In this document: positions 16,296 to 46,826 of the stretch, one piece after another | How the letters are laid out: every line of letters begins with the position of its first letter | Numbering within the stretch: the stretch's first letter is position 1 | Assembly: GCA_000002445.1 (NCBI GenBank) | Contig: CH464491.1 | Coordinates: 416,001 to 480,000, forward strand | Origin: Trypanosoma brucei | Taxonomy: Eukaryota | Direction of reading: 5' to 3' | DNA: 64,000 nt | Translations under genes and position numbers: made by a program | The notes under the pieces: generated by a model | The model's input: the letters and a program-made list of their open reading frames with translations, nothing else | The model's database searches: none | Told to the model about the DNA's origin: nothing

Positions 16296-16352
16296 CCGCC
16301 CTTATTTTTGTCCAAACTATTTCCCCTTTGACCCCTTCCTTTTGTCGTCTGT
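16296..16352 (+). promoter_or_regulatory. polypyrimidine tract, likely the trans-splice acceptor region for GRESAG4
   Basis: cccttatttttgtccaaactatttcccctttgaccccttccttttgtcgtctgtaag lies ~40 nt upstream of the ATG at 16389. Confidence 0.45.
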
Positions 16353-16388
16353 AAGACATCTTAACGCTAAATAGAGACTAAACAAACA

Positions 16389-23071: not shown

Positions 23072-23491
23072 ATGTCCTTTTTCCAGTTGGATTGGGAATG
23101 TTCATATCAAGAGTATATGAAAATGATCTATCATCACGCAACGAACTATGTTCCGCCACGGGTTTCACAAGAGAGGCACCTCATCACTTGTAGGGAGCTG
23201 CTGAATGAAGCTCAGAGGGAATGCAAGGGAGGCAAGTATGATCTTTCCTTCTTTCACTACCTTCGGTGTATGGAGATTCTCACTAAGGTGGGGATACCCT
23301 CTACATACAAAGATTCAATGGTTCTGAAGAAGCAGTGTATGGATGCCATTGAAGCCCTCATGAATAGCGCTCTTAAAAATCACTATGAAAAAATGGTTAA
23401 AGAATTAAAGTCAAAGAAGGAAGGAGTTGATGCGGTTGACTATAAATTGTATGGCGACAGACTTGCCCACGTATCTGGGGGAAACAGCTAA
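23072..23491 (+). CDS. possible small helical protein (AMSH/USP8 N-terminal dimerisation-domain-like), either a stand-alone gene or a truncated remnant
   Basis: The 139 aa ORF has a polypyrimidine tract plus AG immediately upstream. The pattern VPPR...(helix)...GKYDLSFFHYLRCMEIL...YKDS...KKQ loosely resembles the N-terminal MIT-like domain of AMSH/STAMBP (IPPRRYFRSG...AFILYNKYITLF...HRDYKS). No JAMM domain follows it. The track start (23066) is a GTG. The ORF sits in an otherwise ORF-free 7.4 kb stretch. Confidence 0.2.
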   Translation: MSFFQLDWECSYQEYMKMIYHHATNYVPPRVSQERHLITCRELLNEAQRECKGGKYDLSFFHYLRCMEILTKVGIPSTYKDSMVLKKQCMDAIEALMNSALKNHYEKMVKELKSKKEGVDAVDYKLYGDRLAHVSGGNS

Positions 23492-26400: not shown

Positions 26401-27505
26401 TCACAGTTGTAATAATAGCAATGCGTGAAAACACAAATACACGCTCCTCAAATGCATGATACAACCAGAGGTGTAAATAGCTCAAATGGTAGGATTCTCG
26501 ACACATGTGGAAACGAATTAACTCAACTAGCAATATTTTAGTTATATCGAAGCCTTACCACAATCGGTTCAGCTAAAATACTTCAAACGAGTCCTTCAAA
26601 ACCCCTGTTTGTTAATGCTTTTATTTATTTTATTCTGATGCCTGGTGAGCATATTTGGCTGCGATGGATTACTGCTGTACATGTTGGATGTGCGAAATCT
26701 TTCTCTAAATTCACAGAAATATATATCGTACCGTCTTTCATTTTACTACTCCCTTACATTCTCTCCAAACATACATAGATGATACCATAGTCATTATAGC
26801 TATTGAGGAAACTGATACCTTGGTCTTACATTGCCCTGGTCGTGGCCGAAACTTGCAACTTGATTTGTCGTGCATTCCGCTATCCATGCTGGAAGTTGTG
26901 TTGTGCAATATTTTCCCTCCGAGTTATGAGGTGTGATAACTGTCAGTCCTTCAGTTGTGCCCTACCAATCGAATCCATCAGCACTATTTTATTGCATCTC
27001 CTCATTCACTTCCCCTTTTACACAGACATATTTCTACCATTAAAAGTTAAAATGTGACTCATAAGCGATGATGAGACCACACCGAGTTGTTTTGCTATTA
27101 CCTCAGTAGCACCACATGAAAGCAAAGTGTTGGCTTTGCATTGCCCTTCTGTGCCAATAGTCGAAAACAGAAATATAGTGAGGAATGTTTGTTATTATTT
27201 GGAATCCTTTTATTGAGTGTGACTTTGGAATCGTAACATAATTGAAATAAGCAGAGAATGTGTCATCCCTCCCTTCCCATTAATTTTCTACATGTGCTGA
27301 GAGGAGATGAAAAGTGTTTTCAGTGTTTGAAGTTTTGACATTTCAGTGGCATAATACTTCAAGTTAGTGGAAATAAAATTGCATACCCAATGCCATTATG
27401 ATGCAAATACATTCAACTGACAGCATTCAATCATCTCATTGCCAAACTTTGTTTCGACTCTCAGAAATAATATTTTTAGTAGAAAACGGCTACCAAACAT
27501 AAGTA

Positions 27506-30500: not shown

Positions 30501-31705
30501 ATCGAATACGAAAAGGTTGGGAGGCATTTGAAGCTCTGACTCGACTACGTGTAGCAACCCTTTCCGTAACTTGGGTTACCAACGAAGGCATACGTCTCCT
30601 CAGCGGGTGCAAAAATCTCAGAAATTTGGAGCTGTACTGTTGTGGAGATGTGTCCAATATCGAGCCGATAAATAACATTAAGTCACTGGAAGAGCTCACC
30701 ATTCAGAACTGCCATAACATTAATGAAGGTCTGCTCAAGGTTGGAATGCTACCAAGGCTACGGGTATTGGTTTTAAGGAAATTACAATCCACTTATTTCT
30801 CCCTCAGTTCACTAGGAGAGAGCAAATCTCTAGTGAAACTCACTATCGAAGGACCTGAAGAACTATGCGACATCAAACTTATTTCCAACATTGCAACACT
30901 TAAGGAACTGAAAATCGCCCATGGTGACCGATTATTGAATGATGTAGGGGATCTTGGAAAACTGCCATGGCTTCATGTACTAACCCTGAGCCATTTCAAC
31001 ATGGGAAATACCTGTTTTGAGAGTGTCTGCAAGATTCGATCGTTGAAATCACTTGACATTACCCACTCATTTGAATTGCCAGACATATATCATATATCAA
31101 ACCTTACGGCACTAGAAGAACTGAATCTGAGCGGATGTTACCACATAATTTCAGGCTGGGAAGCACTGACCGCATTACCACGACTCCGTGTGCTCAACTT
31201 ATCGTCCACAAGAGTTACAACCAGTTACGGTGGATATTATATCAGCAGATGCAAATCCCTCATTACACTGAACCTTGAATCGTGTGATATGACCGATGCT
31301 TCTTGTCTTGCTGATATCAAGACACTAGAGGAGTTACACATAGGGAAGTGCGAAGAGCTAACGCGGGGGTTTAGTGCACTTTTCACTCTTCCACAGTTGC
31401 GCATTCTTAACCTTATGGATTCTCTCATTACAGATGAAGATCTCAGGGAAATTCAACTATCCCATACCATTGAGGATCTCAACCTCTCTTATTGCAAGGA
31501 GCTTAATGATATCACACCCGTTAGGAGGATCAAATCAATTAAAAAAATGGACCTCCACCGAAGCTCTGAAGGCAGGGGACTAAGGGAAGGATTCAGAAGT
31601 CTTTTGGAGCTACCATGTCTTTCCTGGGTTGATATCAAAAATGCTAATGTCAGTTTTGATGTTTATAAAGAACTGAAAGAAAGGAAAGTGGATATATACA
31701 ACTAG
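27506..31705 (+). CDS. leucine-rich repeat protein (LRRP), ESAG8-like LRRs, ~45 tandem LRR units, no RING finger
   Basis: A 1399 aa protein built almost entirely from ~24-residue repeats of the type LxxLxLSxCxxITDIxPLSxLxxLEELNLxxC, as in trypanosome ESAG8/LRRP1. The N-terminus MGTTMSG fits an N-myristoylation consensus, and a basic KRQR cluster follows it. The ORF starts at an ATG. Confidence 0.85.
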   Translation: MGTTMSGNQGRKRQRISTPEHSEALKEPSTSQKNTPTTITITEEMRDSSNEGTLVSLLNEREKLIKETPRLESNVKAFRYFMSGLTAMSVERQGGVCDDAKCIRTVTLYHAADNSFSGKGLNEGALSSLCGRIQAEKLTITMSEGEKFDLQGVSELKQLEELRIEYPRGKLVNMISLKRLHMLKRLYLKSNNIDDNDVSHLFNIVTLEDLVVADTMQLTNIKGISRLTNLKCLEFNYTSIDDSCIEEICECATLSKLSVSECNSLTDVTPISQLAALEELNLSNCYHITKGIGALVRLLRLRALDLSGVSVEDNFLKDLCDCGPLERLNLSHCIQLTDINPLSNATAIQELNLNRCHRITQGISVVWELPKLRVLHMKDMHLSESSLDSVGTSESLVKLSIENCAGFGDMTLLSSFVALEELNIQKCADIISGVGCLGTLPYLRVLNIKEAHISSIGFTGIGASKSLLQLTIESTTGLSDVEALANILTLEKLSLLGCNGIDAGIGCLGNLPQLKVLDLSGTNTDSDSLRGLCVSQTIVSLNLSHCWKVTSVFHISALETLNELNLSDCIRINAGWEALEKLQQLHVAILSNTHITDRDISHFSKCKELVTLDLSFCDELFDITSLSNITTLEDLNLDNCSKIRKGLSVLGELPRLRVLNVKGVHLTNSVIGSLGNGKSFVKLILDNCKGLSDVTFLSSLSTLKELNLHHCDAVTSGIGTLGRLLQLRVLDLGWTKIDNNSLEDICACSSPLVSLNLSHCKEITSISAIASLNALEKLNIDNCCHVTSGWNVFGTLHQLRVAVLSNTRINDENIRHISECKSLNTLNLAFCNDITDITALSNITMLRELNIDWCFNIEKGVEALGKLPKLRELDAKKCGTSVRWMQQYPYNTLFKSLVKLNLENGRESFCVGTLSSTAIVEELLLGRACEPYHLPPISSLRRLRVLNLDDGRVCDIWLEGISQSKSLQSLNVSNCNYITDISALSSLSTLEELNVNCCDRIRKGWEAFEALTRLRVATLSVTWVTNEGIRLLSGCKNLRNLELYCCGDVSNIEPINNIKSLEELTIQNCHNINEGLLKVGMLPRLRVLVLRKLQSTYFSLSSLGESKSLVKLTIEGPEELCDIKLISNIATLKELKIAHGDRLLNDVGDLGKLPWLHVLTLSHFNMGNTCFESVCKIRSLKSLDITHSFELPDIYHISNLTALEELNLSGCYHIISGWEALTALPRLRVLNLSSTRVTTSYGGYYISRCKSLITLNLESCDMTDASCLADIKTLEELHIGKCEELTRGFSALFTLPQLRILNLMDSLITDEDLREIQLSHTIEDLNLSYCKELNDITPVRRIKSIKKMDLHRSSEGRGLREGFRSLLELPCLSWVDIKNANVSFDVYKELKERKVDIYN

Positions 31706-34700
31706 TATTTGATCCATTGTTTTGTTCTGTATTATGGTAATATACAGAACAAGAACACATCATTAAATGTAACAGCCAGTTCGAGTAGTTAACTGACCGT
31801 AGGCACCGTTATTGGGACAGATGCCAGCAACAATTCACGTAAACTTTATTGGATTTTACAATAACTTGAATACGAGATATACAAGGATTTCATTACAGTT
31901 TTGTAATTGTTTCATTTTTTTGTAAATTATACCCATTACATATTGTGAAGAGTAAAGAACAGTTAGAAAAGCGTGTGTCCATACAACAAGCTTTTTGCCC
32001 AATGGAAATTTGTATTTTAGTTGTAAGAGTAATGATTATTATATTGCGCTCATTCATGTTACAACTATACCAAATGGACATCTTGTTATTTTGTACTTCA
32101 TTCTAACTTTATAACGACATACTCTCACACACATATATTGAATAAATTATTTTGATTATCATTTACTGACAGAAATAACAAAGAAACTTTATTATAAATT
32201 ATATCAGAGCGGCATCTTGAGCACCAAGTTATTACAAGGGAAATTATTTTACAACACATTACGTTTCTTGTAAATCTTTTTTTTATACTTGATACAGACA
32301 GACATATATTCTCAAGCAGTTCAACGAAATTACACTGCTTCATTAAAATATTTTAACTTATTGTATTTGTTTTGTAATAACATAATTTATCCTATTACAT
32401 TTCCTTTCGGAGCTATTTGAACTAACCGTTTATGAAGATGTCATACATTCTGAAGCCTCTTGTACACAAGAATGAAGTGGCGCTGTTCCAATAGAAAATC
32501 TTACTTCCCTATCTGGCCTTTGTTTTGTAACGTAACGTTGGCTTGTAATATTTTATGCCCCAAGATGTAACGAACCGAGAAGAAATTTCGTTTGTTTTAC
32601 AGACGCCTCCAAATAACCGCAACTGTATGTTTGTTATTTTCTGGATTGTTGAGTCGTCCCCTGCTCTTTTTGCAACATTGAAACCCATTACTTTTCTTCA
32701 CTAGTGCGGAATATATTCTATGTTGATGTTTTGTTGTTACTTGGTGATATTTGCGTACCCTACTACTGTAAGATAGCGAAGTAGAAGAACTACATTTCTA
32801 AGGGTCGGAGGTTTCTGTTCCTACAGAAGTAAAAGAGTGTTGTGTTTCAAGGGATGCGTGCGCGGTGTGGCAATGTTGTTGAGCAGCGATACTGTCTTGA
32901 ACCCATGAAACCAAAAGGTGGAGAATATTTGGCCCCTCAAGGGTAATTATCATAGCATTCCGTGTGTTATTTTTTATAATGGAACTGAAGTGAGCCAGGT
33001 GGGTTTTTTAAATCTTCATACATGAACAGTGGTGTCAATTACCTCCTAGTGCATGCATGATACCGTCTTTCATATATGGATATTGAACCTACCAAACACC
33101 CAATGAATACGACCTTACGCCGTGCGTCACTTGTCTTCAATATTTTGAATGTTGTGTTCACTTAACTTTTCTCACCCTCAATAGTGTTGGAGGTGTGGAT
33201 AAGACTCAGAAAACGCGATACAGTTACGCTACAGAACAATGAAGTAGAGGGTAACGTGCTGATGGCAAAATTTTTACTTTCAATGCCTTTGCGGCCGGCG
33301 TCCTTTCCTCCTCGGTGAAACTCACGATTTTCCTTTCAACATCCCTGCGTTAGATGCATGGCACGCGAAAACATAACCATACCCACATGCAACCGTGTGC
33401 ATTAGGAGTGTGCATAACCGGGATGTTGGGAAAGAGCCCCCGATGCGACGCCGTATCATTTATGACTATGCCGGTGGTCGAAAACAGGGAACTTCCTCGT
33501 TCTCATTGGGCCCACCCATTCATAAGGTCTGGCGGTCGGGGATGGCCTTAATGCGACAGGTACACGTACGGCGACGCTGGAGACGGCTGCATTGTCAACG
33601 GGTAAGCCAAGTTCCTCTATGCGTCCTAATCTTTAGAGTTTTTGGCAGTCGGTTGGTTGAGAGCTCCTGTTTTGAAGAAAAGTAGCCATACCATCTGTTC
33701 TCTGAAGTGCTAAGGGTATCGCGTTTTCTTCCCGAACTCGAAGACGCACTACTTTGGGGATATATAGACTGGCTGTCATTCAGTGCGGATGTTGAGCACA
33801 ACCAAGGGTCCAAATTTTCACAGATGTTAATGAGGTGCCGGGGATCTTTCCCAGTCGAAAAGGCTCGAAATGATCGAGCATTCATGTGACTTCGAAGTCG
33901 ACTTCCACCTTCCGTAAACACAACCACGTACCGGAGTGGGCGAACACATACATTTCATGACGCCCTCGTGTTGGAATAGTATGGTTTCCCATAGGAGAAT
34001 GAACGTCCATACAGATCAGGAATAACAATGGTGCAATACAAAGTCAAAATCCTGTGGTGACCCCTCGGAGTATCAGTCACGTTTTCGCTTACAAAGAAGG
34101 TGCAAACTACGCTCGTGTGTATGCGGTCCCTGGGCCTATTCGCAGCAGTTATGTGTTGCAATCTCACTGCGGGGTCCAATGCGTATTTTAAAGGGCCAAT
34201 TAGAAAAACTTATACGTGGACTTACACAACTAATCCTTTGTCAGTTGATCCAGGTAAACTTTATCAGCAACAGGGTCATGCGGCTGTTCTTTATGGAATG
34301 TAATGGTGGGAAATAGGGGTGAGACCGTGAGGATATTTCGAAACTGCAAATCGTTAGTGAAACAGAAGGGAAAGGGAAAACATTACAGAATAAACTGGTA
34401 AGAACTGATACTCTAAATAAAGGTTGAGAGGGATCTCGCAGAACTGAGTGCAGTTTTGAGCGGTGATTGACAAAAGGCTGTCTCATTAGTTGATTGAGGA
34501 AGAAACTTACGTACCTGGTCCAGTGTGTCGCTTCCTTCTCTTCACTCTAACGGCAACATTGCATTAACTGAATTCTGCAGCTGTTGAGGGGGATGGGCAC
34601 GCAAAAGTACCTTATGTGTTTGGAGGCGCGGGCAAAACCAGGAAAAAGTAGTTCTCGTCACCCTGGTGAGTTTCACCCTCTTCCGTGCAGGTTTGTCTTT

Positions 34701-37660
34701 TAGCGTTTTCGGTACCGTTTTCAACATTGCTGTTGGCGCTGCTTCCACGCGGCAACTGCATCCCAATATTCAGATGTCCCTTTAATCCTGTATTTTTCCA
34801 TGTTGCCGATGATTATCGTTTCTGTGCCCGATGAAGCGTCTAAACTCACCAGTTCATTTGTTGAAACTTTTCACTCCTTCTTATTGAATATCCCTATTTT
34901 TTGCGGCGTATGAGAGCCCTCCCCCATTCGTCTTTTGCGTTTGCTTTTATACCCACCCACGGAAAGCAAATTTATTTTCTCCTCGGAATCAACATCCAAG
35001 GAGCTTTAAGTGTGGAGTGCACCCTGATTTTCGCCTTCGGAGCACCAGACCTCCACTGTATTCAGCCATTCAGGTATTGGATGACTTCTAGGATATTGCC
35101 GGTTTATTATGTCTGAAAAGCATCCTTTTTGGCACTTGACGTGAGGCGGTATTCCACAGCCCACTTTTTTGGTCTTTTCAAACAAATATCAGTCGTGCTT
35201 ATTTGAGCATATCTTGTTTGTTTGCGTGCGACGAAATCTCAGCAATCGTGTATGCCGACTGAGCTTCCTTGCTTTTCGCTTTCTCCCCGCTTGAAATGGA
35301 AACGGAGAACCGTAGAAATAATACCATAGTCCATCTTTGCTTAGATGGGTCGAGAGTGGAAAGCTGTCGGTGTTTCTTGGGAGTTTTGCTCAGGTGATAG
35401 CACAACTCTTGGCTTTATGAATCTTGTCGTCGCTGCCGCCGCCATTTGCCACACATAGATTGGTACCCCTTCGGTTGCCACAATGCGGCGCCAAACAGAT
35501 TTGGCGTATTGGCATCGCTCACCATTTTTCCACGACTCGTGAAAGCGCATGGCTCTCGAGTGCTCGGTCCAAGTGATTTGTACTCCACCTCCGCCGGCAC
35601 TTCCGTAAAGTGTCCCGTTTATCGCTCGGTCACAAATTACAGAACCTGCTATAACTTACCTCTAAATTCTCCTCGTCCGAATTGAGTCACTGTGAGTTCC
35701 ATTTCGTAACTGAATAAACTGTGCGCGAGTCCAGGGATCACGTTCAGTTCTTTGCCCGGTCGTCCCATCATTATGAGCCCGGACCCGACACAGACGTATG
35801 AGGAACAGTGCATGTCGACTCTACACTCCCCGATAAAGTGTTGTTTACTCCGTTTTGTTTTTGAGGGGGCTGTGAGAAGAACTGCCAAGCCCATACCCAT
35901 TGCCAAGTAATGTACAAAACTCATCGATCCCCATTTTCATACCACGGTTAAGAGAAGCGTCGCAAAGAGTGAGTTTTTGAAACGCCCACCGAACCCAACC
36001 GTCACCGCCTCCGCGCGGGAGGCAGGTTAAGGGCACTTCCACCACCTTCTTTACCGCCAGTAAATTAACTTCCATACAATTGAGGACTCGCACACTACAG
36101 AAATCCCCCTCCCAAGCAATTTTAACGGCCGGCGTTGTAGGCACAACAAAGGTTAAAATATTACTCCTCCTGCTCGTTTTCTCTTCATTCAACACAAAAA
36201 AGGCAATGTATGGACTGTTCTGCCCGTTTTTTTTTTTTTGAGAGAGAGGGATAGTGAGGCTTCTGCAGCGGTAAAATTGCGAGTCAAGTGTTACCACGCT
36301 GTGGGAGGACACGACGTATAATGAAGGAAACTTTTTTTTTGCTTGCGGGCGGTTTAAAGGGATATGCGTTTAAACCATTATATCTTGAGTGGGTGGCGCC
36401 CGAAAAAGATCGCGAAGCAGGCATGAAGCTTGCGAAACTTCTTGGGGCTCAAAGGACCAACGACACGGTGAACTTGACAAAATTTGAGGGATGTAGAAGC
36501 TACATGTTGAGGAGAGCACAATGCATTAGCACGGTTCCCTAGGGCACTGGCTTTATGGAAACGGTGGTAAGATACCCGCTGGGGAGGCGAGCCAAACGTG
36601 CATTCATTTGGTGTATGGACTGCTAATAAACAAATGTAACAGGCGGAAGTCGGAGTTGTCGCACGCGGTGAGGCACCCCGTTGAGACGGAAGTATGGACC
36701 GAAACAACCCTCACATATAAAATGAAGCGTTCGCGTCACCCCCCCCCCCCCAGCGGCAGACATTGGCATATATGCGTTCGCGCTTGCACTTCATGTCAAT
36801 TTCGCCACTGAAAGGAGCACTCCATCCTGCGTGTGTGTGTGTGTGTGCTTGCCTGTGCATCTTTTTTCGAACGCCGTTGTTTTTATGTACGAAACGGAGG
36901 GCGGGGAGGGAGGGGAATCCCAGGTGGAAGTTATATTTCATGGCAGGGGAATATTGCTGACAGAATACTGTTACCAGTGCCCCGGCTGGTGGGGTTCGCC
37001 AACACGAAAGGACAATAGTGAAAAAAAATAAGGACTGGGGGAATAAAAATTTACAGAAGTTACACAGTTAAAAACACCATGAGCAATCGACGATTTCCAG
37101 ACCCTCTAGCACCACGATTCGGAGGTATTATTACACATTCCAGAATTTGTAGAGGTTCAAATTCAAGTTCCACGGTTCCAGTAATCCATCAGCCCTCACA
37201 AAACGTGTAAAGAAGCGCCAAGTTACTTCATGAGTCTCATCCGACCCATCTCATTCACGCTTTTCAAATACATACACTACAAAAAATCTACTCCCTCCGG
37301 TCTCCACAGGACGCACAAATTTGTCAGCGTGAACCCTGGTCCATGACGTAGAAAGTGTCTTGCGCCACCCGAAATACGTGGCTGAAGGATTTCGCGGGAC
37401 GGATACAAACCCCGCTGGGTAAAAGTGTGTGGGAGTTATCGTGCCTTCCGGGACCTATCTCCACAGCACATGTTTTCACCTCAGGGCAAAACGCATGTGG
37501 CCGCCTCATGCGAAATGGCATATCGGGAACACACCGCACACAGCACATCGGATACTAGCACCTACTCGACTACAAACAAGTAGAAAACGCACATGCATAG
37601 TACATTACGCCCCAGCAACGGGGGTCCTCCCCATTGATGGACGTGATGCGTGCCGAAGAA

Positions 37661-37728
37661 CGTGGACTGTAATTTTACCCGAGGTGTAAGCGCGATGAAT
37701 CACACCTCGGGTAAAATTACAGTCCACG
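37661..37728. repeat. perfect 27 bp inverted repeat (hairpin with 14 nt loop) about 95 nt downstream of the last gene of the minus-strand polycistronic unit
   Basis: The left arm cgtggactgtaattttacccgaggtgt, the loop aagcgcgatgaatc and the right arm acacctcgggtaaaattacagtccacg are read directly from the sequence. The right arm is the exact reverse complement of the left arm. Confidence 0.9.
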
Positions 37729-37822
37729 AGCCTCGTCCACACGACCGGATGGGCAACTGCGTTGGAAACTACTTATGAAACAGAGTTAATAGTTTCTTTT
37801 GTTTAGAGGCGGGGGTCACACG

Positions 37823-38995
37823 CTATTTTCTCAGTGGTCGAATAAGCCATCTAGGGTCTGAAATGTCCGAGAGAGGGCACACACCACTAAGTTTCATATA
37901 CCGGCGTGCGCCCCACACAGTGTGGACTTCTACAGAGCTATTCTCCAATAGACGTCTGTAGGCATTTTTCTGTTGGAAGGAAGAATCTCGAAGGGCTCTA
38001 AACCAACTTGTTTGGTTGAGATATTTGGGCATCAGGTTCCTCCACGCACTAATTGAGGTTGGGAAGTGCAAAACCACGCCACTTTCGACCGAAACACTGT
38101 GGGGATAATGAAAAAAACGCGTCTCGTAATCGAGGGATATAATTCCCCTTCGCAGCAGTAATTTTGGCTTCACATGCTTCGGCCTACTGACGCTCCATGT
38201 CAACACTATAGTCCACATAGTTTGATCACATAGCCAAATAAGGCTCTGGCGTCTCAAATTAAAGAAAACTTTCAAAGCCTCTTTTAGCGCCCACACTCTG
38301 GCTATCACGCCTCCGCCATTAAGATACGACCTTCCCGATTCATTTACCCTTAAAATATTTTCAACTCCCACACCCCTTGTTGCATCCATTGCGTCATCAA
38401 ACAACTTCTTACAGTTTTGAAACTCCGACCTCCCCTCCGGCTTCACCATGATATTCAGCTGAGGAGTAGCGCAACCCTTCTCAGCGGTAAACAACATTGG
38501 AGGTGTCATTTCTCCTCTTAAAATAGCCGTCTCGTTGAACGCTTCAGGGATTTTTGGTGTAGTGTCGAGGAAATGCTTCACTGCCTCCTCCCTAACACCT
38601 GCATCGGTGAAATAGGTATCTCCCCCATCGAACAACATAATCACATCACTTTCGCGCATCTTCTCACGCACCATGTAACTATAAATCCAGTCCCACCTCT
38701 TCACATGCCCATACCAGCCTCCCATGCCCAGTGTCGCAACCGATGCATTAGTGAGTATAGAACTTACAATCATCCTGCACCACCCCGGAGAGTACCTCGT
38801 GTGCACCACAGCATAATACACCCTCGGCGTATAATTTCTACCACTGTCTTTCTTTCTTAACAACGTCCCTGTTTCCTTGTTCCTCACGCTCATTTCTCCC
38901 AAAAACCAGAGCACAGTTAGCAGCATCACCCCCACCATCGCGGCATATAGTCTTCCCCTTGTGCCCCCATAAATTGCCCTAGCCCCTTTCAACAT
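37823..38995 (-). CDS. type II membrane protein, glycosyltransferase-like (GT-A fold, DGGD DxD-type motif; PLOD/LH3 N-terminal GT-domain-like), paralog A
   Basis: An N-terminal signal anchor (LYAAMVGVMLLTVLWFLG) is followed by VATLGMGGWYGHVKRW...DVIMLFDGGDTYFTD, which resembles the GT domain of lysyl hydroxylase/PLOD (TLGLGEEW...MIIMFVDSYDVIL). The functional call is tentative. The track start at 39010 is a TTG. The first ATG gives MLKGARAIYGG..., matching the N-terminus of paralog B. Confidence 0.45.
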   Translation of the reverse strand: MLKGARAIYGGTRGRLYAAMVGVMLLTVLWFLGEMSVRNKETGTLLRKKDSGRNYTPRVYYAVVHTRYSPGWCRMIVSSILTNASVATLGMGGWYGHVKRWDWIYSYMVREKMRESDVIMLFDGGDTYFTDAGVREEAVKHFLDTTPKIPEAFNETAILRGEMTPPMLFTAEKGCATPQLNIMVKPEGRSEFQNCKKLFDDAMDATRGVGVENILRVNESGRSYLNGGGVIARVWALKEALKVFFNLRRQSLIWLCDQTMWTIVLTWSVSRPKHVKPKLLLRRGIISLDYETRFFHYPHSVSVESGVVLHFPTSISAWRNLMPKYLNQTSWFRALRDSSFQQKNAYRRLLENSSVEVHTVWGARRYMKLSGVCPLSDISDPRWLIRPLRK

Positions 38996-39128
38996 ATAAA
39001 AACTTCGCAAAAAAAAAATGGATTTACTTGGAGAAGGGTGATGCTTTTCCCCTCAACTCGGACACAGTGCGGATGCGTTTTTTTTTTTTTTAACTCTGGC
39101 GAACGGTTCGTAAAAATTCCGTGCGATG

Positions 39129-40292
39129 TTACTTTTTCAACTGCCCACTGAGCCAACTGGGGTCGGAGATGTTAGATATGGGGCATACGGTACTTAACTT
39201 AGCGTCTTTGCGGGAACCCCAGAAAGTGTACATCTCCACAGTGGAATTTTTCAGCAAACGAATGGAGGCCTCCCGCTTGGGGGAAGAATTGCTCAGTGCT
39301 CTATACCAATTTATCTCACTCAGATACTGTGGCAATGTACGCTTCCACACGTGAACTGGTCCCGCAAAATGCAGTATCATTCCACTCATAACCATCGTCT
39401 TGGATGGATAAAGGAAGTAACGCGTCTCATAGTCAAGAGATATTAGCCCCCTTCTCACCAACAGCGCTGGCTTTATATTCTCCGGCCTGGTGATACTCCA
39501 TATTAGCAAGAGTGCCCACATTGACTGGTCGCAACCCCAAACAAACTTTTTTTTTCTGAGGTTAAAGAATGCCTTCAGAGCCTCTTCTAGTGCCCACACC
39601 CTGGCAATTATTCCTCCCCCGTTGAGATACGATCTTCCCGATTCATTCGCCCTTAAAATAGAACGCAACCCTGTGCGATTGGAAACTACGAACGCCTCGT
39701 TGTACAGTTTACTGCACTGATGAGCGCGCTCGCTCTTAGGTGTCTTTACCATGAAATGACTTTGAGGGGTGAAACAGAAATTTTCGGCGGCCATCAACAT
39801 TGGAGGTGTCATTTCCCCTCTTAAAATAGCCGTCTCGTTAAACGCTTCAGGGATTTTTGGTGTAGTGTCGAGGAAATGCTTCACTGCCTCCTCCCTTACA
39901 TCCTCCCCTGTGAAGACCGTATCGCCCCCATCAAATATCACAATCACGTCACCCTCACTCATCTTCTTCTGCCGTAGGTACCGGTACAACCACAACCACC
40001 TGCTCACATGCCCATACCAGCCTCCCATGCCCACTGTGGCAACGCTCACATTAGTGAGTATCGAACTTACAATCATCCTGCACCACCCCGGCGCGTACCT
40101 CGTTTCTGCAACAAGAAAAAACACCCTTGGTATGTGATTACCGTAACTTCCATCCTTCTTCCCCTCCACGCTAGTTTCCCCACTCCCTACATTTCTTAAC
40201 CCCAACCACCAAAAAAATAACATCAGCACCAACCCCATAACATACAACCTGCCCCTTGAATCCCCATAGAATTCCCTAACACCTTTCAGCAT
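39129..40292 (-). CDS. type II membrane protein, glycosyltransferase-like, paralog B (tandem duplicate of 37823-38995)
   Basis: About 70% aa identity to paralog A, with the same VATVGMGGWYGHV and FDGGDT motifs. It starts MLKGVREFYGD at an ATG. The intergenic spacer to paralog A is only ~120 bp and contains a T13 tract. Confidence 0.45.
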   Translation of the reverse strand: MLKGVREFYGDSRGRLYVMGLVLMLFFWWLGLRNVGSGETSVEGKKDGSYGNHIPRVFFLVAETRYAPGWCRMIVSSILTNVSVATVGMGGWYGHVSRWLWLYRYLRQKKMSEGDVIVIFDGGDTVFTGEDVREEAVKHFLDTTPKIPEAFNETAILRGEMTPPMLMAAENFCFTPQSHFMVKTPKSERAHQCSKLYNEAFVVSNRTGLRSILRANESGRSYLNGGGIIARVWALEEALKAFFNLRKKKFVWGCDQSMWALLLIWSITRPENIKPALLVRRGLISLDYETRYFLYPSKTMVMSGMILHFAGPVHVWKRTLPQYLSEINWYRALSNSSPKREASIRLLKNSTVEMYTFWGSRKDAKLSTVCPISNISDPSWLSGQLKK

Positions 40293-40431
40293 ACAAACAG
40301 ATGTCTCTAAGAAATAAAAGGGTACGCACCCAGTGAGTGGACAACTACACGTTAAATCAAGGGAAACGAATAGTTAATGTTAAACATTAGTTTCCCAACA
40401 GTTAAGGCATGTAAATCCGGCACACCACAAC

Positions 40432-43400
40432 ACCAAAAACACATAAATATGTGCAACACCGATTATCTCGGGATGCTGATGCTCCCACTCGCCTACATAT
40501 GAAGGCAGTGGGTCTCAATGCATACCTCGTTAAATGTGAACCCAACGATAACGATATTCTGTGGGACAGATTCAAATAGATGAGACAACAGAGTAGTGTG
40601 CAGGCATTCAATACGTACAACAGTCAGACCTGTTGAGTTTGATTTAGTATTCAATAAGCGCGCTCATAAAGTAAGGCATATTGACCTTCACGTACACATA
40701 ATCGTTGTTTCCATCACACTGCCGCGTCTGTTGTGCATTCCCCCCATTTTCTTATCCACCTTCCCACCCAGATACCACAAACAAACCGCATGATCTCTCT
40801 TACACTTTCGAGCCAATACCGTCACCGAAAGTATACTGACAGGCAGCCAGACAGGGTAAGATTTGGTTCTAATGACATAATGCTGCGTAGAGCAAAGGTA
40901 GTGGGGGGGGGGAAAAAAAAGGATGTGGAGAGGGATGGAGGAAGGAAGGGAACGAGCTGCATAGCAGGCCATTGCTCAGCCGAAAGGTGATTTTTGATGT
41001 TCCGTTATCAATGCATCGCTCAAACTGTTTGGACCTCGAACAACAATTATGCATCACAGCATCAGTGGCCAAAAAGAAAACTAGTAGCACACATATACAC
41101 ACACACGAACATAAACATAAACATAAACATAAACAGGGATGAATGACCTATGAGGAAGAGGGTGGATAAAAACAAAATAATAAGGATGGATGATACTCGA
41201 TTCAGTGTGAGCTGAGTTAAAAATTATGTCTTCAAAATGGCTCTACTGCCGTCAGGCTGACAGGAAACTATTGACTGTCATCATTAGAGGGGAAGATAAT
41301 GCATTTGAGTGCCAAAACTACAAATGGCTCTCGCGCAACAGGACAGGGGCCACATCCCCACGGCATTAAATGGTTGCCACTGGCCCAAGGGATGCTGCGC
41401 TGTATTGTTTCAACAGCACATAAGCAAAAACACATAAATATGTGCAACACCGATTATCTCGGGATGCTGATGCTCCCACTCGCCTACATATGAAGGCAGT
41501 GGGTCTCAATGCATACCTCGTTAAATGTGAACCCAACGATAACGATATTCTGTGGGACAGATTCAAGTAGATGAGACAACAGAGTAGTGTGCAGGCATTC
41601 GATACGTACAACAGTCAGACCTGTTGAGTTTGATTTAGTATTCAATAAGCGCGCTCATAAAGTAAGGCATATTGACCTTCACGTACACATAATCGTTGTT
41701 TCCATCACACTGCCGCGTCTGTTGTGCATTCCCCCCATTTTCTTATCCACCTTCCCACCCAGATACCACAAACAAACCGCACGATCTCTCTTACACTTTC
41801 GAGCCAATACCGTCACCGAAAGTATACTGACAGACAGCCAGACAGGGTAAGATTTGGTTCTAATGACATAATGCTGCGTAGAGCAAAGGTAGTGGGGGGG
41901 GGAAAAAAAAGGATGTGGAGAGGGATGGAGGAAGGAAGGGAACGAGCTGCATAGCAGGCCATTGCTCAGCCGAAAGGTGATTTTTGATGTTCCGTTATCA
42001 ATGCATCGCTCAAACTGTTTGGACCTCGAACAACAATTATGCATCACAGCATCAGTGGCCAAAAAGAAAACTAGTAGCACACATATACACACACACGAAC
42101 ATAAACATAAACATAAACAGGGATGAATGACCTATGAGGAAGAGGGTGGATAAAAACAAAATAATAAGGATGGATGATACTCGATTCAGTGTGAGCTGAG
42201 TTAAAAATTATGTCTTCAAAATGGCTCTACTGCCGTCAGGCTGACAGGAAACTATTGACTGTCATCATTAGAGGGGAAGATAATGCATTTGAGTGCCAAA
42301 ACTACAAATGGCTCTCGCGCAACAGGACAGGGGCCACATCCCCACGGCATTAAATGGTTGCCACTGGCCCAAGGGATGCTGCGCTGTATTGTTTCAACAG
42401 CACATAAGCAAAAACACATAAATATGTGCAACACCGATTATCTCGGGATGCTGATGCTCCCACTCGCCTACATATGAAGGCAGTGGGTCTCAATGCATAC
42501 CTCGTTAAATGTGAACCCAACGATAACGATATTCTGTGGGACAGATTCAAATAGATGAGACAACAGAGTAGTGTGCAGGCATTCGATACGTACAACAGTC
42601 AGACCTGTTGAGTTTGATTTAGTATTCAATAAGCGCGCTCATAAAGTAAGGCATATTGACCTTCACGTACACATAATCGTTGTTTCCATCACACTGCCGC
42701 GTCTGTTGTGCATTCCCCCCATTTTCTTATCCACCTTCCCACCCAGATACCACAAACAAACCGCATGATCTCTCTTACACTTTCGAGCCAATACCGTCAC
42801 CGAAAGTATACTGACAGGCAGCCAGACAGGGTAAGATTTGGTTCTAATGACATAATGCTGCGTAGAGCAAAGGTAGTGGGGGGGGGGGAAAAAAAAGGAT
42901 GTGGAGAGGGATGGAGGAAGGAAGGGAACGAGCTGCATAGCAGGCCATTGCTCAGCCGAAAGGTGATTTTTGATGTTCCGTTATCAATGCATCGCTCAAA
43001 CTGTTTGGACCTCGAACAACAATTATGCATCACAGCATCAGTGGCCAAAAAGAAAACTAGTAGCACACATATACACACACACGAACATAAACATAAACAT
43101 AAACACGGGATGAATGACCTATGAGGAAGAGGGTGGATAAAAACAAAATAATAAGGATGGATGATACTCGATTCAGTGTGAGCTGAGTTAAAAATTATGT
43201 CTTCAAAATGGCTCTACTGCCGTCAGGCTGACAGGAAACTATTGACTGTCATCATTAGAGGGGAAGATAATGCATTTGAGTGCCAAAACTACAAATGGCT
43301 CTCGCGCAACAGGACAGGGGCCACATCCCCACGGCATTAAATGGTTGCCACTGGCCCAAGGGATGCTGCGCTGTATTGTTTCAACAGCACATAAGCAAAA

Positions 43401-45603
43401 ACACATAAATATGTGCAACACCGATTATCTCGGGATGCTGATGCTCCCACTCGCCTACATATGAAGGCAGTGGGTCTCAATGCATACCTCGTTAAATGTG
43501 AACCCAACGATAACGATATTCTGTGGGACAGATTCAAATAGATGAGACAACAGAGTAGTGTGCAGGCATTCAATACGTACAACAGTCAGACCTGTTGAGT
43601 TTGATTTAGTATTCAATAAGCGCGCTCATAAAGTAAGGCATATTGACCTTCACGTACACATAATCGTTGTTTCCATCACACTGCCGCGTCTGTTGTGCAT
43701 TCCCCCCATTTTCTTATCCACCTTCCCACCCAGATACCACAAACAAACCGCATGATCTCTCTTACACTTTCGAGCCAATACCGTCACCGAAAGTATACTG
43801 ACAGGCAGCTAGACAGGGTAAGATTTGGTTCTAATGACATAATGCTGCGTAGAGCAAAGGTAGTGGGGGGGGAAAAAAAAGGATGTGGAGAGGGATGGAG
43901 GGAGGAAGGGAACGAGCTGCATAGCAGGCCATTGCTCAGCCGAAAGGTGATTTTTGATGTTCCGTTATCAATGCATCGCTCAAACTGTTTGGACCTCGAA
44001 CAACAATTATGCATCACAGCATCAGTGGCCAAAAAGAAAACTAGTAGCACACATATACACACACACGAACATAAACATAAACATAAACATAAACAGGGAT
44101 GAATGACCTATGAGGAAGAGGGTGGATAAAAACAAAATAATAAGGATGGATGATACTCGATTCAGTGTGAGCTGAGTTAAAAATTATGTCTTCAAAATGG
44201 CTCTACTGCCGTCAGGCTGACAGGAAACTATTGACTGTCATCATTAGAGGGGAAGATAATGCATTTGAGTGCCAAAACTACAAATGGCTCTCGCGCAACA
44301 GGACAGGGGCCACATCCCCACGGCATTAAATGGTTGCCACTGGCCCAAGGGATGCTGCGCTGTATTGTTTCAACAGCACATAAGCAAAAACACATAAATA
44401 TGTGCAACACCGATTATCTCGGGATGCTGATGCTCCCACTCGCCTACATATGAAGGCAGTGGGTCTCAATGCATACCTCGTTAAATGTGAACCCAACGAT
44501 AACGATATTCTGTGGGACAGATTCAAATAGATGAGACAACAGAGTAGTGTGCAGGCATTCAATACGTACAACAGTCAGACCTGTTGAGTTTGATTTAGTA
44601 TTCAATAAGCGCGCTCATAAAGTAAGGCATATTGACCTTCACGTACACATAATCGTTGTTTCCATCACACTGCCGCGTCTGTTGTGCATTCCCCCCATTT
44701 TCTTATCCACCTTCCCACCCAGATACCACAAACAAACCGCACGATCTCTCTTACACTTTCGAGCCAATACCGTCACCGAAAGTATACTGACAGGCAGCTA
44801 GACAGGGTAAGATTTGGTTCTAATGACATAATGCTGCGTAGAGCAAAGGTAGTGGGGGGGGAAAAAAAAGGATGTGGAGAGGGATGGAGGAAGGAAGGGA
44901 ACGAGCTGCATAGCAGGCCATTGCTCAGCCGAAAGGTGATTTTTGATGTTCCGTTATCAATGCATCGCTCAAACTGTTTGGACCTCGAACAACAATTATG
45001 CATCACAGCATCAGTGGCCAAAAAGAAAACTAGTAGCACACATATACACACACACGAACATAAACATAAACATAAACATAAACAGGGATGAATGACCTAT
45101 GAGGAAGAGGGTGGATAAAAACAAAATAATAAGGATGGATGATACTCGATTCAGTGTGAGCTGAGTTAAAAATTATGTCTTCAAAATGGCTCTACTGCCG
45201 TCAGGCTGACAGGAAACTATTGACTGTCATCATTAGAGGGGAAGATAATGCATTTGAGTGCCAAAACTACAAATGGCTCTCGCGCAACAGGACAGGGGCC
45301 ACATCCCCACGGCATTAAATGGTTGCCACTGGCCCAAGGGATGCTGCGCTGTATTGTTTCAACAGCACATAAGCAAAAACACATAAATATGTGCAACACC
45401 GATTATCTCGGGATGCTGATGCTCCCATTCGCCTACATATGAAGGCAGTGGGTCTCAATGCATACCTCGTTAAATGTGAACCCAACGATAACGATATTCT
45501 GTGGGACAGATTCAAATAGATGAGACAACAGAGTAGTGTGCAGGCATTCAATACGTACAACAGTCAGACCTGTTGAGTTTGATTTAGTATTCAATAAGCG
45601 CGC
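40432..45603. repeat. tandem direct-repeat array: 5 full + 1 partial copies of a 984-991 bp unit, >99% identical
   Basis: The same 60-137 aa ORFs recur at 984-991 bp spacing (e.g. minus-strand ORF starts at 41450, 42434, 43421, 44410, 45399). The unit landmark cacataaatatgtgcaacacc falls at ~40440, 41431, 42415, 43402, 44391 and 45380. Copies differ only by a few SNPs, (CATAAA)3 vs (CATAAA)4, and a G8-11 A8 block. The array ends abruptly at ...caataagcgcgctc / ttttttttttggg. Confidence 0.95.
42180..42275 (-). ncRNA. candidate C/D-box snoRNA, one per repeat unit (coordinates given for the third copy); speculative
   Basis: On the minus strand the unit reads ...ccucuAAUGAUGAcagucaauaguuuccugucagcCUGAcggcaguagagccauuuugaagacauaauuuuuaacucagcucacaCUGAaucgag.... 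This gives a consensus C box (AUGAUGA), a CUGA about 22 nt downstream (D') and a second CUGA about 80 nt downstream (D), so the element is ~90 nt, a typical size for a trypanosome C/D snoRNA. The terminal stem is weak. No covariance search or expression data were available. Confidence 0.2.
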
Positions 45604-46826
45604 TCTTTTTTTTTGGGAGAGGGTTACTTCTATTTGCTATATTATTTTTCTTGAACTGCAATGCCTTGCGTGAAGAAAATTATGAGGTGAAAAAAAAAGG
45701 TGTCAAGTTTTTGCTGTTATGGAATTGGTTTTTTTAATGCTTACTTGCTAAACTTTTTTTTTTTGGAGCAGAAGTGTTTACACATTTTCTTTTTTTCAAC
45801 TCATCATCCTGTCTTCCATTTTGTTATGTAACTGATCTTTATACAAATAAGAATGGATATTTGCAATGGAGAACGTATCGGTAGGATGGATGTGAGTTCT
45901 GACCCTTTATTCTGTGATCAGTTGTGGGATTTGCAATATATCTCTCGTGCGTTTTTTTAGAAAAAATATACCAAAGGATGAACAACTTAATGGTAAACGT
46001 TGGATCTTTTCTGCCGAATTTTTTCTTTCTTTTCTTCCATAACTTTTTTTTCTTGGAAGGTGGTTCTTTTCTTAACTTCTACCAAAGCATCGCCGCGTTA
46101 TGCAGTGCAAAGAGGCGAGTTTTTTTTATGTCGATCGAACCACCCTTTAAAAACAAGCAAAACCACGGATACGTAAACGTGTTAATGAGGTTGAGTGATA
46201 GCTTTTGTGACCAATCACCTCACGTGTGGTAACGGTAAGTAAAACAAAACGATGTAAAATGCGGCAAGGCAACAACGCATATGCGCAGTCACTTATATAC
46301 GAACAAATAACGAAATGACATATATATAATGGCAATTCATAAAAAGTGAGAGTAACCATGCCTTTGCAGTTGTGGAATCGTTGTTTTCCCTATTTCATCG
46401 ATTCCCTTGGTGGTTTGCCTTCATATGAAGCTGTGTCGGGCGCTTTCGACATACCCATCAATGCAACAATTCAAACTTGCACTCAGTCACTTTTTCCTTT
46501 TCCCCGTATCGGCGTGAGCTCTACGCTATTTCTCCTCCACTCTGTAGATATTGAGACGCTTGAACGATAACGTATATGAAATGCCCAGCAGTTGCAACCG
46601 CAAGCTTACACATGGATCACTGGACCTTTCCCATGCATAAAGCTAAATGCCATCTCCGAGGCAAGGCAAGAGAGTCGTGAAATACATGATCAAACGAAAA
46701 AATACGAAATGAGGCGACAAACGGCGGACTTCGCTCCGCCCAATAACTCAAATAAATAACACGCACCATATCCTGATTGCTTTACATAACATCCATCTCG
46801 CCACCCCTCGTCAGAACAAACAATTC

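What the first reader, a model, noticed from the sequence alone, without database searches (positions are those of the whole stretch)
37823..40292. Tandem pair of glycosyltransferase-like type II membrane proteins with mosaic identity, a signature of gene conversion
Two adjacent minus-strand genes encode ~390 aa proteins with an N-terminal signal anchor and a DGGD (DxD-type) motif. The segments ...VATLGMGGWYGHV...DVIMLFDGGDTYFTD... resemble the N-terminal GT domain of lysyl-hydroxylase/PLOD-type enzymes. Overall the paralogs are only ~70% identical. They nonetheless share patches of near-perfect nucleotide identity, for example ~110 nt at ~38475-38585 versus ~39785-39895 with about 3 mismatches. 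The antisense ORFs 38573-38860 and 40008-40199 share a 30-residue identical peptide for the same reason. Islands of identity in diverged tandem duplicates suggest ongoing gene conversion. The family has none of the motifs of the large trypanosome beta-3-glycosyltransferase family (no DDD motif), so it may be a distinct, poorly characterised GT family.
Basis: partly seen in the sequence, partly recalled or inferred. Interest (0 to 1): 0.5.

Follow-up and report, generated by a model that had tools for sequence, protein, structure and literature searches.

The report
Tandem GRESAG3 glycosyltransferase genes with conversion tracts

Summary
Window 37823-38995 (gene A, 390 aa from the ATG) and 39129-40292 (gene B, 387 aa), both on the minus strand, are the annotated T. 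brucei TREU927 chromosome 11 'ESAG protein, putative' genes XP_828241 and XP_828242. They are chromosome-internal ESAG3-related genes (GRESAG3, Fam53). They share 58% of amino acids and 66% of nucleotides.

Two tracts stand out:
- 38492-38593 versus 39795-39896: 100 of 102 nt identical.
- 38702-38800 versus 40005-40103: 89 of 99 nt identical.

Silent sites are identical only inside these tracts, and only between A and B. A Sawyer-type permutation test gives P<=5e-5. This is gene conversion.

The syntenic T. b. gambiense locus holds one B-5'/A-3' hybrid pseudogene. Its crossover lies inside the 102-nt tract.

A 2026 preprint shows that expression-site ESAG3 is a Mn2+/UDP-glucose O-glucosyltransferase of VSG with this fold. 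A and B are 31% identical to it. They lack its essential W242 and its H54/W345 interface, and they look membrane-anchored.

The genes are ordinary, known family members. The new details are minor.

The parts
37823..38995 (-). Gene A: GRESAG3 paralogue, 390 aa plus stop (XP_828241 / EAN79129 / Q387A2). It is the last gene of the minus-strand transcription unit before a convergent strand-switch region.
   Evidence: ORF. 100% match to a TREU927 protein. AlphaFold model pLDDT 91. LH3-like GT-A fold.
39129..40292 (-). Gene B: GRESAG3 paralogue, 387 aa plus stop (XP_828242 / EAN79130 / Q387A1), immediately upstream of A.
   Evidence: ORF. Identical to P0002. 58% amino-acid identity to A.
38996..39128 (-). 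The 133-nt intergenic spacer between the B stop and the A ATG. It holds an A14 run, then a T10 tract and an AG 12 nt before the ATG; the tract and AG are read here as a polypyrimidine tract and splice acceptor.
   Evidence: Sequence read directly. The function of the motifs is inferred.
38492..38593 (-). Conversion tract 2, copy in A (A residues 135-168, VREEAVKHFLDTTPKIPEAFNETAILRGEMTPPML).
   Evidence: 100/102 nt identical to 39795-39896. 30 of 32 silent codons identical, against 67/149 in the background. The T. b. gambiense crossover maps to its last 21 nt, 38492-38512.
39795..39896 (-). Conversion tract 2, copy in B (B residues 133-166).
38702..38800 (-). Conversion tract 1, copy in A (A residues 66-98, TRYSPGWCRMIVSSILTNASVATLGMGGWYGHV). 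It is either older or made of two sub-blocks.
   Evidence: 89/99 nt identical to 40005-40103. 23 of 26 silent codons identical (P 5e-6). The same stretch compared with the chr10 paralogue is at background, 7/20.
40005..40103 (-). Conversion tract 1, copy in B (B residues 64-96).
38618..38629 (-). DGGD (D123-D126) of A. This is the DxxD metal-binding motif, equivalent to ESAG3 D110/D113 and LH3 D112/D115. B has the same motif at 39921-39932.
   Evidence: Invariant or nearly invariant in 42 homologues. Aligned to the LH3 motif FVDSYD. Ungapped offset of 13 from ESAG3. ESAG3 D110N is inactive.
38231..38233 (-). Leu255 of A (Gly253 in B). This position corresponds to ESAG3 Trp242, where the W242A mutant is inactive.
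   Evidence: Ungapped pairwise alignments. All 18 other close kinetoplastid representatives with a residue here have Trp; only A, B and chr10 P0004 (Arg) do not. W242A data.
38891..38947 (-). Hydrophobic segment of A (about residues 17-35), preceded by a basic 16-residue tail. It is a probable type II signal anchor; B has the equivalent.
   Evidence: Only one hydrophobic window per protein. Predicted helix 11-38 followed by a disordered stem 39-51. Contrast with the short, classical signal peptide of ESAG3. Cleavage was not testable here.

Best explanation
The two genes are chromosome-internal members of the ESAG3-related family (GRESAG3, Fam53) of Trypanosoma brucei chromosome 11.

Each most likely encodes a secretory-pathway glycosyltransferase. 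The predicted layout is a short basic cytoplasmic tail, one membrane-spanning anchor, a flexible stem and a lumenal GT-A catalytic domain of the LH3/PLOD3 type. That domain would bind Mn2+ and a UDP-sugar through DxxD (D123/D126), a Gly loop (G228-G229), D257/Q258 and H310. By analogy with ESAG3 and LH3 it would transfer the sugar with retention of configuration to a protein or glycan acceptor.

The fold and the residue conservation are shown here. Activity, donor, acceptor and topology are inferred.

The duplication is old. Outside two short tracts, A and B are as diverged from each other (61% nt, silent sites near saturation) as each is from a chromosome 10 paralogue.

Two short non-reciprocal transfers between the neighbours (gene conversion) then re-homogenised about 100 nt each. 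The 98%-identical tract later served as the homology for an unequal crossover or single-strand-annealing deletion of one 1303-bp unit in T. b. gambiense DAL972. That left a single B-5'/A-3' hybrid, which has since acquired a stop codon.
For: Identity and family:
- 100% match to TREU927 'ESAG protein, putative' on a 5.26-Mb contig.
- The neighbouring TB11Cs4 snoRNA cluster confirms chromosome 11.
- 31% identity, ungapped, to canonical expression-site ESAG3.
- Fam53/GRESAG3 is described in PMC6152948.

Fold:
- PDB profile hits are LH3 only.
- GT_PLOD Pfam hits occur in distant homologues.
- pLDDT-91 model.
- Foldseek E 1e-9 to LH3.

Catalytic residues: conserved across 42 homologues.

ESAG3 biochemistry: Mn2+, UDP-Glc, retaining, D110N inactive.

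Conversion:
- Tract statistics and the chr10 paralogue control.
- Scan-corrected permutations.
- Sawyer-type test, A-B P<=5e-5, other pairs non-significant.

Recombinant in T. b. gambiense:
- The gambiense locus aligns to B down to 39795 and to A from 38827.
- There is a single clean B-to-A switch between A nt 483 and 505.
- The hybrid differs from B at 2/498 nt and from A at 5/669 nt, including CGA to TGA.
- Jackson et al. 2010 list this locus (Tbg972.chr11.1620) as single copy in gambiense. [quoted passage not shown]
Against: - No enzymatic, localisation or expression data exist for A or B.
- The residue equivalent to ESAG3 W242 (W242A is inactive) is Leu in A and Gly in B. The H54/W345 interface pair is absent. 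Activity or specificity may therefore differ or be lost.
- Direct Pfam and PDB sequence searches with the single protein find nothing. The link to LH3 needs a profile or a model.
- The conversion inference rests on one strain plus one recombinant assembly. With only two tandem copies the direction of transfer cannot be determined.
- The tracts were first chosen by eye, although scan-corrected tests remain significant.
Confidence: 0.82

Rival explanations
1. There was no gene conversion. The identical tracts are segments under unusually strong purifying selection, on the protein or on an embedded nucleotide-level element such as an RNA structure or regulatory motif.
For: Tract 1 encodes the family's most conserved motif (PGWCRM...GMGGWYGH), invariant in many homologues. 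Tract 2 encodes a helix just after the DxxD motif.
Against: - Silent codons are 30/32 and 23/26 identical in the tracts, against 67/149 elsewhere.
- The same stretches compared with the chr10 paralogue are at background both for silent sites (9/22, 7/20) and, in tract 2, for protein (24/34).
- A family-wide constraint would also show in those comparisons. The Sawyer-type test is significant only for A-B.
Confidence: 0.05
2. A and B keep the glycosyltransferase fold but are catalytically inactive or non-enzymatic, for example lectin-like proteins, regulatory partners or decaying genes.
For: - The ESAG3 W242 equivalent is Leu/Gly, and W242A abolishes ESAG3 activity.
- The gambiense copy is a pseudogene, so the locus is dispensable in at least one subspecies.
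Against: - DxxD, the Gly loop, D-Q and His are all intact in both genes.
- Both ORFs are intact despite saturated silent divergence, which implies long-term purifying selection.
- LH3 has Asp at the W242-equivalent position, and distant homologues vary there, so Trp is not a general requirement of the fold.
Confidence: 0.15
3. The duplication is recent and specific to T. b. brucei, followed by very rapid divergence. This is how Jackson et al. 2010 describe their class of 'subspecies-specific segmental duplications'. On this reading the tracts are simply the parts that have not yet diverged.
For: The locus is listed as single copy in T. b. gambiense versus two copies in T. b. brucei, at distance 0.481.
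Against: - The gambiense gene is not orthologous to one copy. It is 99.6% identical to B over nt 1-498 and 99.3% identical to A from nt 505 on, with one clean switch. Both diverged copies must therefore predate the subspecies split.
- Silent sites outside the tracts are saturated, and A-B divergence equals A-chr10 paralogue divergence.
Confidence: 0.03
4. Assembly artefact: either the mosaic in TREU927 or the hybrid in DAL972 is a mis-join of reads across the shared 100 nt.
For: Tandem repeats are error-prone in Sanger-era assemblies. The DAL972 assembly also has fewer snoRNA repeat units at this locus.
Against: - A 102-nt shared tract is much shorter than a Sanger read, so it is unlikely to cause a collapse.
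- The identical tracts in TREU927 are flanked on both sides by copy-specific sequence in frame.
- In Jackson et al. 2010, this locus is not among those marked with an asterisk, where reads for the missing isoform were found among unassembled reads.
Confidence: 0.05

Closest known systems
ESAG3 sensu stricto (bloodstream expression-site ESAG3 of T. brucei; Zhong et al. 2026, bioRxiv 10.64898/2026.01.27.701950)
   Same: Homologous over about 320 residues (31% identity, E 1e-63, ungapped). Both have the LH3-like GT-A fold. DxxD, the Gly-Gly loop, the acidic-Gln pair and the C-terminal His are all conserved. Both carry multiple N-glycosylation sequons, consistent with a lumenal domain.
   Different: - A and B sit in a chromosome core at a convergent strand switch, not in a telomeric VSG expression site.
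- W242 (essential in ESAG3) is Leu/Gly.
- The H54/W345 interface pair that holds the octadecamer together is Arg and gap/Lys.
- E244 is Asp.
- ESAG3 has a short cleavable signal peptide and is a soluble ER protein. A and B have a long basic N-tail plus a hydrophobic segment of about 18 residues, like a type II anchor.
- Donor, acceptor and oligomeric state are untested.
Chromosome 10 GRESAG3 tandem array (XP_823170-XP_823173; array Tb105a of Jackson 2007, PMC1855330)
   Same: Same family and same tandem head-to-tail layout with very short spacers. Closest paralogues: 56-57% amino-acid identity to A. Gene conversion was already reported there by GENECONV. The array is also reduced in T. b. gambiense, where the first copy is a 109-aa fragment.
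   Different: It has four genes, including two 97%-identical copies, rather than an old diverged pair. The chr10 copies compared here (P5 versus P9-like) show no conversion signal.
Human LH3/PLOD3 N-terminal glucosyltransferase domain (PDB 6FXR, 6WFV) and mimivirus R699
   Different: Only about 18-22% identity. LH3 is a three-domain enzyme acting on collagen galactosyl-hydroxylysine. A and B are single-domain proteins with an extra C-terminal helical/beta region of about 80 residues and an N-terminal anchor. Their acceptor is unknown.
Trypanosome UDP-Gal/GlcNAc beta-3-glycosyltransferase-like family (GT67)
   Same: Both are type II-like secretory-pathway GT-A enzymes in multigene families of T. 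brucei. This rests on established knowledge, not on a test here.

Membership tests
ESAG3/GRESAG3 family (Fam53) | Significant full-length sequence homology to ESAG3 and ESAG3-like proteins of trypanosomatids | tested here: met
   E 2e-63 and 7e-64 to canonical ESAG3 over about 320 residues. All close database hits are named ESAG/ESAG3-like.
ESAG3 sensu stricto (expression-site clade) | Located in, or derived from, telomeric/subtelomeric VSG expression sites, and more than 90% identical to the BES ESAG3 cluster | tested here: not met
   Only 31% identity. The genes are flanked by housekeeping genes and a snoRNA cluster in the core of chromosome 11. They therefore belong to the GRESAG3 lineage, not to ESAG3 proper.
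ESAG3-type O-glucosyltransferase (functional class) | Catalytic residues D110/D113, G215-216, W242, E244/Q245 and H297 | tested here: inconclusive
   D123/D126, G228-229, D257/Q258 and H310 are present in A and B, but the W242 equivalent is Leu (A) or Gly (B). W242A is inactive in ESAG3.
ESAG3-type O-glucosyltransferase (functional class) | Mn2+-dependent transfer of glucose from UDP-glucose to Ser/Thr of VSG | not testable with these tools
   Needs biochemistry. The preprint tested no GRESAG3.
ESAG3-type O-glucosyltransferase (functional class) | Homo-octadecameric ring stabilised by H54/W345 stacking | tested here: not met
   H54 is Arg67. W345 falls in a 3-residue gap in A and is Lys in B. 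Only the residues were tested; the assembly itself was not.
GT-A fold glycosyltransferases, LH3/PLOD GT-domain type (Pfam PF25342 GT_PLOD) | Rossmann-like GT-A fold with LH3 GT as the closest structural neighbour | tested here: met
GT-A fold glycosyltransferases, LH3/PLOD GT-domain type (Pfam PF25342 GT_PLOD) | Match to the Pfam model above its gathering threshold | tested here: not met
   A and B alone give no hit. Only 6 of 42 more distant homologues hit GT_PLOD, best E 3e-10. A family profile hits LH3 chains in the PDB at E 6e-9. This is remote homology, not Pfam membership.
GT-A fold glycosyltransferases, LH3/PLOD GT-domain type (Pfam PF25342 GT_PLOD) | DxD/DxxD metal-binding motif and C-terminal His | tested here: met
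   D123 is invariant, and D126 and H310 are conserved in at least 90% of 42 homologues. They align to LH3 D112/D115 and H253.
Inter-paralogue gene conversion in tandem arrays (as in Jackson 2007) | Non-random clustering of shared silent polymorphism, specific to one pair | tested here: met
Inter-paralogue gene conversion in tandem arrays (as in Jackson 2007) | Phylogenetic incongruence between tract and flanks, tested with orthologues from several strains | not tested
   Only TREU927 and the DAL972 hybrid could be retrieved. Look-ups for other strains returned nothing.

The most novel reading that the evidence does not exclude
A and B, together with the chromosome 10 P0004-type genes, may form a membrane-anchored GRESAG3 subclade. 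Its donor pocket is remodelled (the ESAG3 W242 position is Leu, Gly or Arg) and the ESAG3 ring interface is lost. Such enzymes could use a different donor or acceptor. For example, they could be the still-unknown enzymes that extend the O-glucose ESAG3 places on VSG, or they could glycosylate other surface proteins. Loss of the locus in T. b. gambiense would then be a real difference in surface glycosylation between subspecies.
Probability: 0.15. Interest if true: 0.6.

Novelty: already known. Interest (0 to 1): 0.27.

Why it matters
Very little changes for the field.
- The genes have been annotated as ESAG-like since the TREU927 genome.
- The family's glycosyltransferase nature and LH3 resemblance are now experimentally established for ESAG3.
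- Gene conversion in T. brucei tandem arrays, including a GRESAG3 array, was described in 2007.
- The copy-number difference at this very locus was tabulated in 2010.

Three small additions may be useful to specialists.
1. The T. b. gambiense gene Tbg972.11.1620 is a B/A recombinant pseudogene produced by deletion through a conversion tract. It is not the unduplicated ancestor, which corrects the reading of this locus as a brucei-specific duplication.
2. This GRESAG3 subclade lacks the Trp that is essential in ESAG3, and lacks the ring-interface residues. This is relevant to the preprint's proposal that GRESAG3 enzymes extend VSG O-glycans.
3. GRESAG3 proteins look like type II anchored proteins, whereas ESAG3 is soluble.

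Tried and rejected
- Direct Pfam scan of A and B gave only sub-threshold noise (DUF7672, PUA_4).
- phmmer of A against PDB sequences gave nothing meaningful. The ESAG3 cryo-EM chain is not in the PDB copy.
- The first AlphaFold run, with the 8-sequence alignment, was too weak to use (pLDDT 62). It was replaced by a 42-sequence alignment.
- Exact-protein look-ups meant to fetch DNA of A, B, P0004 and P0007 from other assemblies returned nothing. No multi-strain test of conversion was therefore possible, and the chr10 control had to come from DAL972.
- tRNA scan of the window found none.
- A literature search for the protein accessions found no paper.
- Ideas considered and rejected:
  - The tracts reflect family-wide constraint. 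Rejected by the paralogue control.
  - The antisense ORFs are genes. They are by-products of the shared sense-strand tracts, 64-95 aa long, and only the two copies resemble each other.
  - The 989-bp repeats upstream are part of the feature. They are the TB11Cs4 snoRNA cluster.
Full report
**What is there.**
The interval holds two intact minus-strand ORFs. Gene A is listed as 37823-39010 from a TTG. The ATG at 38995 gives a 390-aa product that is 100% identical to a database protein. Gene B is 39129-40292, 387 aa.

A search of about 5.8 billion proteins returned only eight clusters, all from the Trypanosoma brucei group. [quoted passage not shown] A and B themselves are present as XP_828241 and XP_828242 of T. 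b. brucei TREU927, on a 5.26-Mb contig.

Immediately upstream (40422-45661) lie five to six copies of a 989-bp repeat. These are the TB11Cs4 H/ACA snoRNA cluster, which fixes the window on chromosome 11.

Pfam scans of the neighbours show that the pair is the last coding unit of a minus-strand polycistron. It abuts a convergent strand-switch region (about 31.7-37.8 kb).

**The observation.**
A and B are 58% identical in protein and 66% in nucleotides on a codon alignment. Third-position identity is 53%.

Identity is strongly mosaic.
- The main tract is 38492-38593 versus 39795-39896 (offset 1303): 100 of 102 nt identical.
- A second tract is 38702-38800 versus 40005-40103: 89 of 99 nt identical.

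The antisense ORFs it mentions share an 18-residue exact peptide (28 of 32 identical), a by-product of the second tract.

**Is it conversion?**
The decisive point is the silent sites. Consider codons that encode the same degenerate amino acid in both genes.
- Outside the tracts, 67 of 149 are identical.
- In tract 2, 30 of 32 are identical (binomial P 6e-9).
- In tract 1, 23 of 26 are identical (P 5e-6).

As a control for family-wide nucleotide or protein constraint I fetched a chromosome 10 paralogue pair from T. b. gambiense (L002). In the same two stretches, A or B against that paralogue is at background: silent identity 9/22 and 7/20, and protein identity 24/34 in tract 2.

Outside the tracts, A-B identity (61% nt) is no higher than A-paralogue identity (60%). 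The duplication is therefore old, and only the tracts are young.

The tracts were first seen by eye, so I ran scan-corrected permutations.
- The best 30-codon window of silent codons gives P=4e-4.
- The longest silent run gives P=2.7e-3.
- The nucleotide windows give P about 1e-5 each.
- A Sawyer/GENECONV-type test on the polymorphic sites of the four-sequence codon alignment gives, for A-B, a longest concordant run of 32 sites (P<=5e-5). All five other pairs are non-significant, P 0.19-0.88.

**A natural recombinant.**
One database hit, P0003 from T. b. gambiense DAL972, looked chimeric in the protein alignment. Its locus (L001) is syntenic with the window.
- L001 aligns continuously through the snoRNA cluster and the 5' part of B down to window 39795.
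- L001 aligns from window 38827 onward through the 3' part of A and beyond.
- The two alignments overlap on 336 nt of L001.

At the sites that distinguish A from B, the gambiense gene is B-type at almost every site up to A nt 483, and A-type at almost every site from nt 505 (one stray site on each side). This is one clean switch, inside the last 21 nt of tract 2.

The hybrid differs from B at 2 of 498 nt and from A at 5 of 669 nt. One of these differences is CGA to TGA at A codon 282 (the hybrid's codon 280). Gambiense therefore carries a single hybrid pseudogene, produced by loss of one 1303-bp unit through the shared tract.

Jackson et al. 2010 (PMC2854126, Table 1) list exactly this locus: Tbg972.chr11.1620, 'ESAG', one copy in gambiense versus two in brucei, distance 0.481. 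[quoted passage not shown] They discuss this class of loci as brucei-specific duplications with rapid divergence.

The hybrid structure shows instead that both diverged copies predate the subspecies split, and that gambiense lost one unit. The crossover used tract 2, so the tract probably already existed in the common ancestor. This fits its 2% divergence, against about 0.6% between the subspecies here. 'Ongoing' conversion is therefore not demonstrated; recent conversion relative to the duplication is.

**What the proteins are.**
Single-sequence searches are silent (Pfam; PDB sequences).

An exhaustive HMMER search with the family profile found 79 representative homologues. They include ESAG-like proteins of T. 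vivax, T. grayi and T. conorhini, and canonical expression-site ESAG3.
- Six of 42 aligned homologues hit Pfam PF25342 'PLOD GT domain'.
- The family profile searched against all PDB sequences hits only LH3/PLOD3 (E 6e-9 to 4e-7). In that match FlDgaDtlF aligns with FVDSYDVIL, RyLNaGG with RFLNSGG, cDQ with DDQ, and ilHfaG with VVHGNG.
- With the 42-sequence alignment AlphaFold gives pLDDT 91.2 and pTM 0.84.
- Foldseek against the PDB ranks ten LH3 entries first (E 1e-9), then mimivirus R699, UGGT and glycogenin.

**Comparison with what is known.**
A 2026 preprint (bioRxiv 10.64898/2026.01.27.701950) reports the following for expression-site ESAG3.
- It is a Mn2+-dependent, UDP-glucose-specific, retaining O-glucosyltransferase, required for O-glycosylation of VSG3.
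- It has a GT-A fold closest to LH3.
- It is a soluble, N-glycosylated ER protein that forms an octadecameric ring.
- About 50 intact GRESAG3 genes remain untested, and are proposed as possible chain-extending enzymes.

A and B align to ESAG3 without gaps over about 290 residues, at a constant offset of 13.
- D110/D113 correspond to D123/D126.
- G215-216 correspond to G228-229.
- E244/Q245 correspond to D257/Q258.
- H297 corresponds to H310.

All of these are present in both genes and are nearly invariant in 42 homologues.

Three differences stand out.
1. ESAG3 W242, whose W242A mutant is inactive, is Leu in A, Gly in B and Arg in the chr10 gene P0004. All 18 other close representatives with a residue there have Trp.
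2. The H54/W345 stacking pair that stabilises the ring is Arg and a gap (A) or Lys (B).
3. ESAG3 starts with a short, classical signal peptide. A, B and other GRESAG3 proteins have a basic tail of 14-17 residues, then about 18 hydrophobic residues, then a disordered stem. This is the layout of a type II anchored glycosyltransferase.

LH3 has Asp at the W242 position, and distant homologues vary there. The substitution therefore suggests altered specificity or gating rather than proving inactivity.

**Mechanism, with status.**
- Shown: homology to ESAG3, the LH3-like GT-A fold, conservation of the metal and UDP-sugar binding residues, the two conversion tracts, and the gambiense recombinant.
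- Inferred: Mn2+/UDP-sugar dependence, a retaining mechanism, a lumenal orientation with a type II anchor, and the choice between unequal crossover and single-strand annealing as the deletion mechanism.
- Unknown: donor, acceptor, oligomeric state, stage of expression and direction of conversion.

**Prior art on the evolutionary pattern.**
Jackson 2007 (PMC1855330) surveyed T. brucei tandem arrays. It reported 76 conversion events in 21 arrays, including ectopic conversion in the chromosome 10 ESAG array Tb105a. That is the array whose gambiense version I used as a control. Fam53/GRESAG3 is described as the ancestral, core-chromosome lineage of ESAG3 (PMC6152948).

**Verdict.**
The observation and both interpretations are sound. 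The genes, their family, the fold assignment, and gene conversion in such arrays are all already documented.

The modest new points are:
- the exact tracts;
- the hybrid (deletion) origin of Tbg972.11.1620;
- the loss of the ESAG3-essential Trp and the ring-interface residues in this subclade;
- the anchor-like N-terminus.

Noticed in passing
window 40422-45661 (minus strand): Five to six tandem copies of a 984-991-bp unit, each carrying the H/ACA snoRNAs TB11Cs4H1, H2 and H3 (Rfam scores 67-90 bits). The array starts 130 nt upstream of gene B. The short ORFs that recur in this region are artefacts of the repeat. DAL972 aligns with fewer units.
   Followed up: partly
window 12987-31705 (plus strand) together with 37823-40292: Several genes related to expression-site or surface genes flank one convergent strand-switch region: an ISG65/75-family gene (12987-14300), a receptor-type adenylate cyclase of the GRESAG4 type (16389-20105), a 1399-aa leucine-rich-repeat protein of the ESAG8/LRRP type (27506-31705), and the two GRESAG3 genes.
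   Followed up: partly
window 37654-37735: A 34-nt inverted repeat (91% complementary, 14-nt loop) lies 90-170 nt downstream of the stop codon of gene A, in the strand-switch region. Its function is unknown; it could be a 3'UTR or termination-related hairpin.
   Followed up: no
window 38996-39128; L002 4180-4249: Spacers between tandem GRESAG3 genes are very short: 133 nt here and 70 nt on chromosome 10 in DAL972. This leaves little room for a 3'UTR, polyadenylation site, polypyrimidine tract and 5'UTR. The spacer here has an A14 run, a T10 tract and an AG 12 nt before the ATG.
   Followed up: partly
L002 (T. b. gambiense chr 10, FN554973.1 2259303-2266481) and TREU927 XP_823170-XP_823173: The chromosome 10 GRESAG3 array has four genes in TREU927, two of them 97% identical. 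In DAL972 the P0004-type copy survives only as a 109-aa C-terminal fragment, preceded by degenerate GRESAG3-like sequence. This is a second GRESAG3 locus that is contracted in gambiense.
   Followed up: partly
window 20001-34000: G+C content drops to 0.39-0.43 across 24-34 kb, compared with 0.45-0.52 elsewhere. The low-G+C stretch covers the LRR gene and the approach to the strand-switch region.
   Followed up: no
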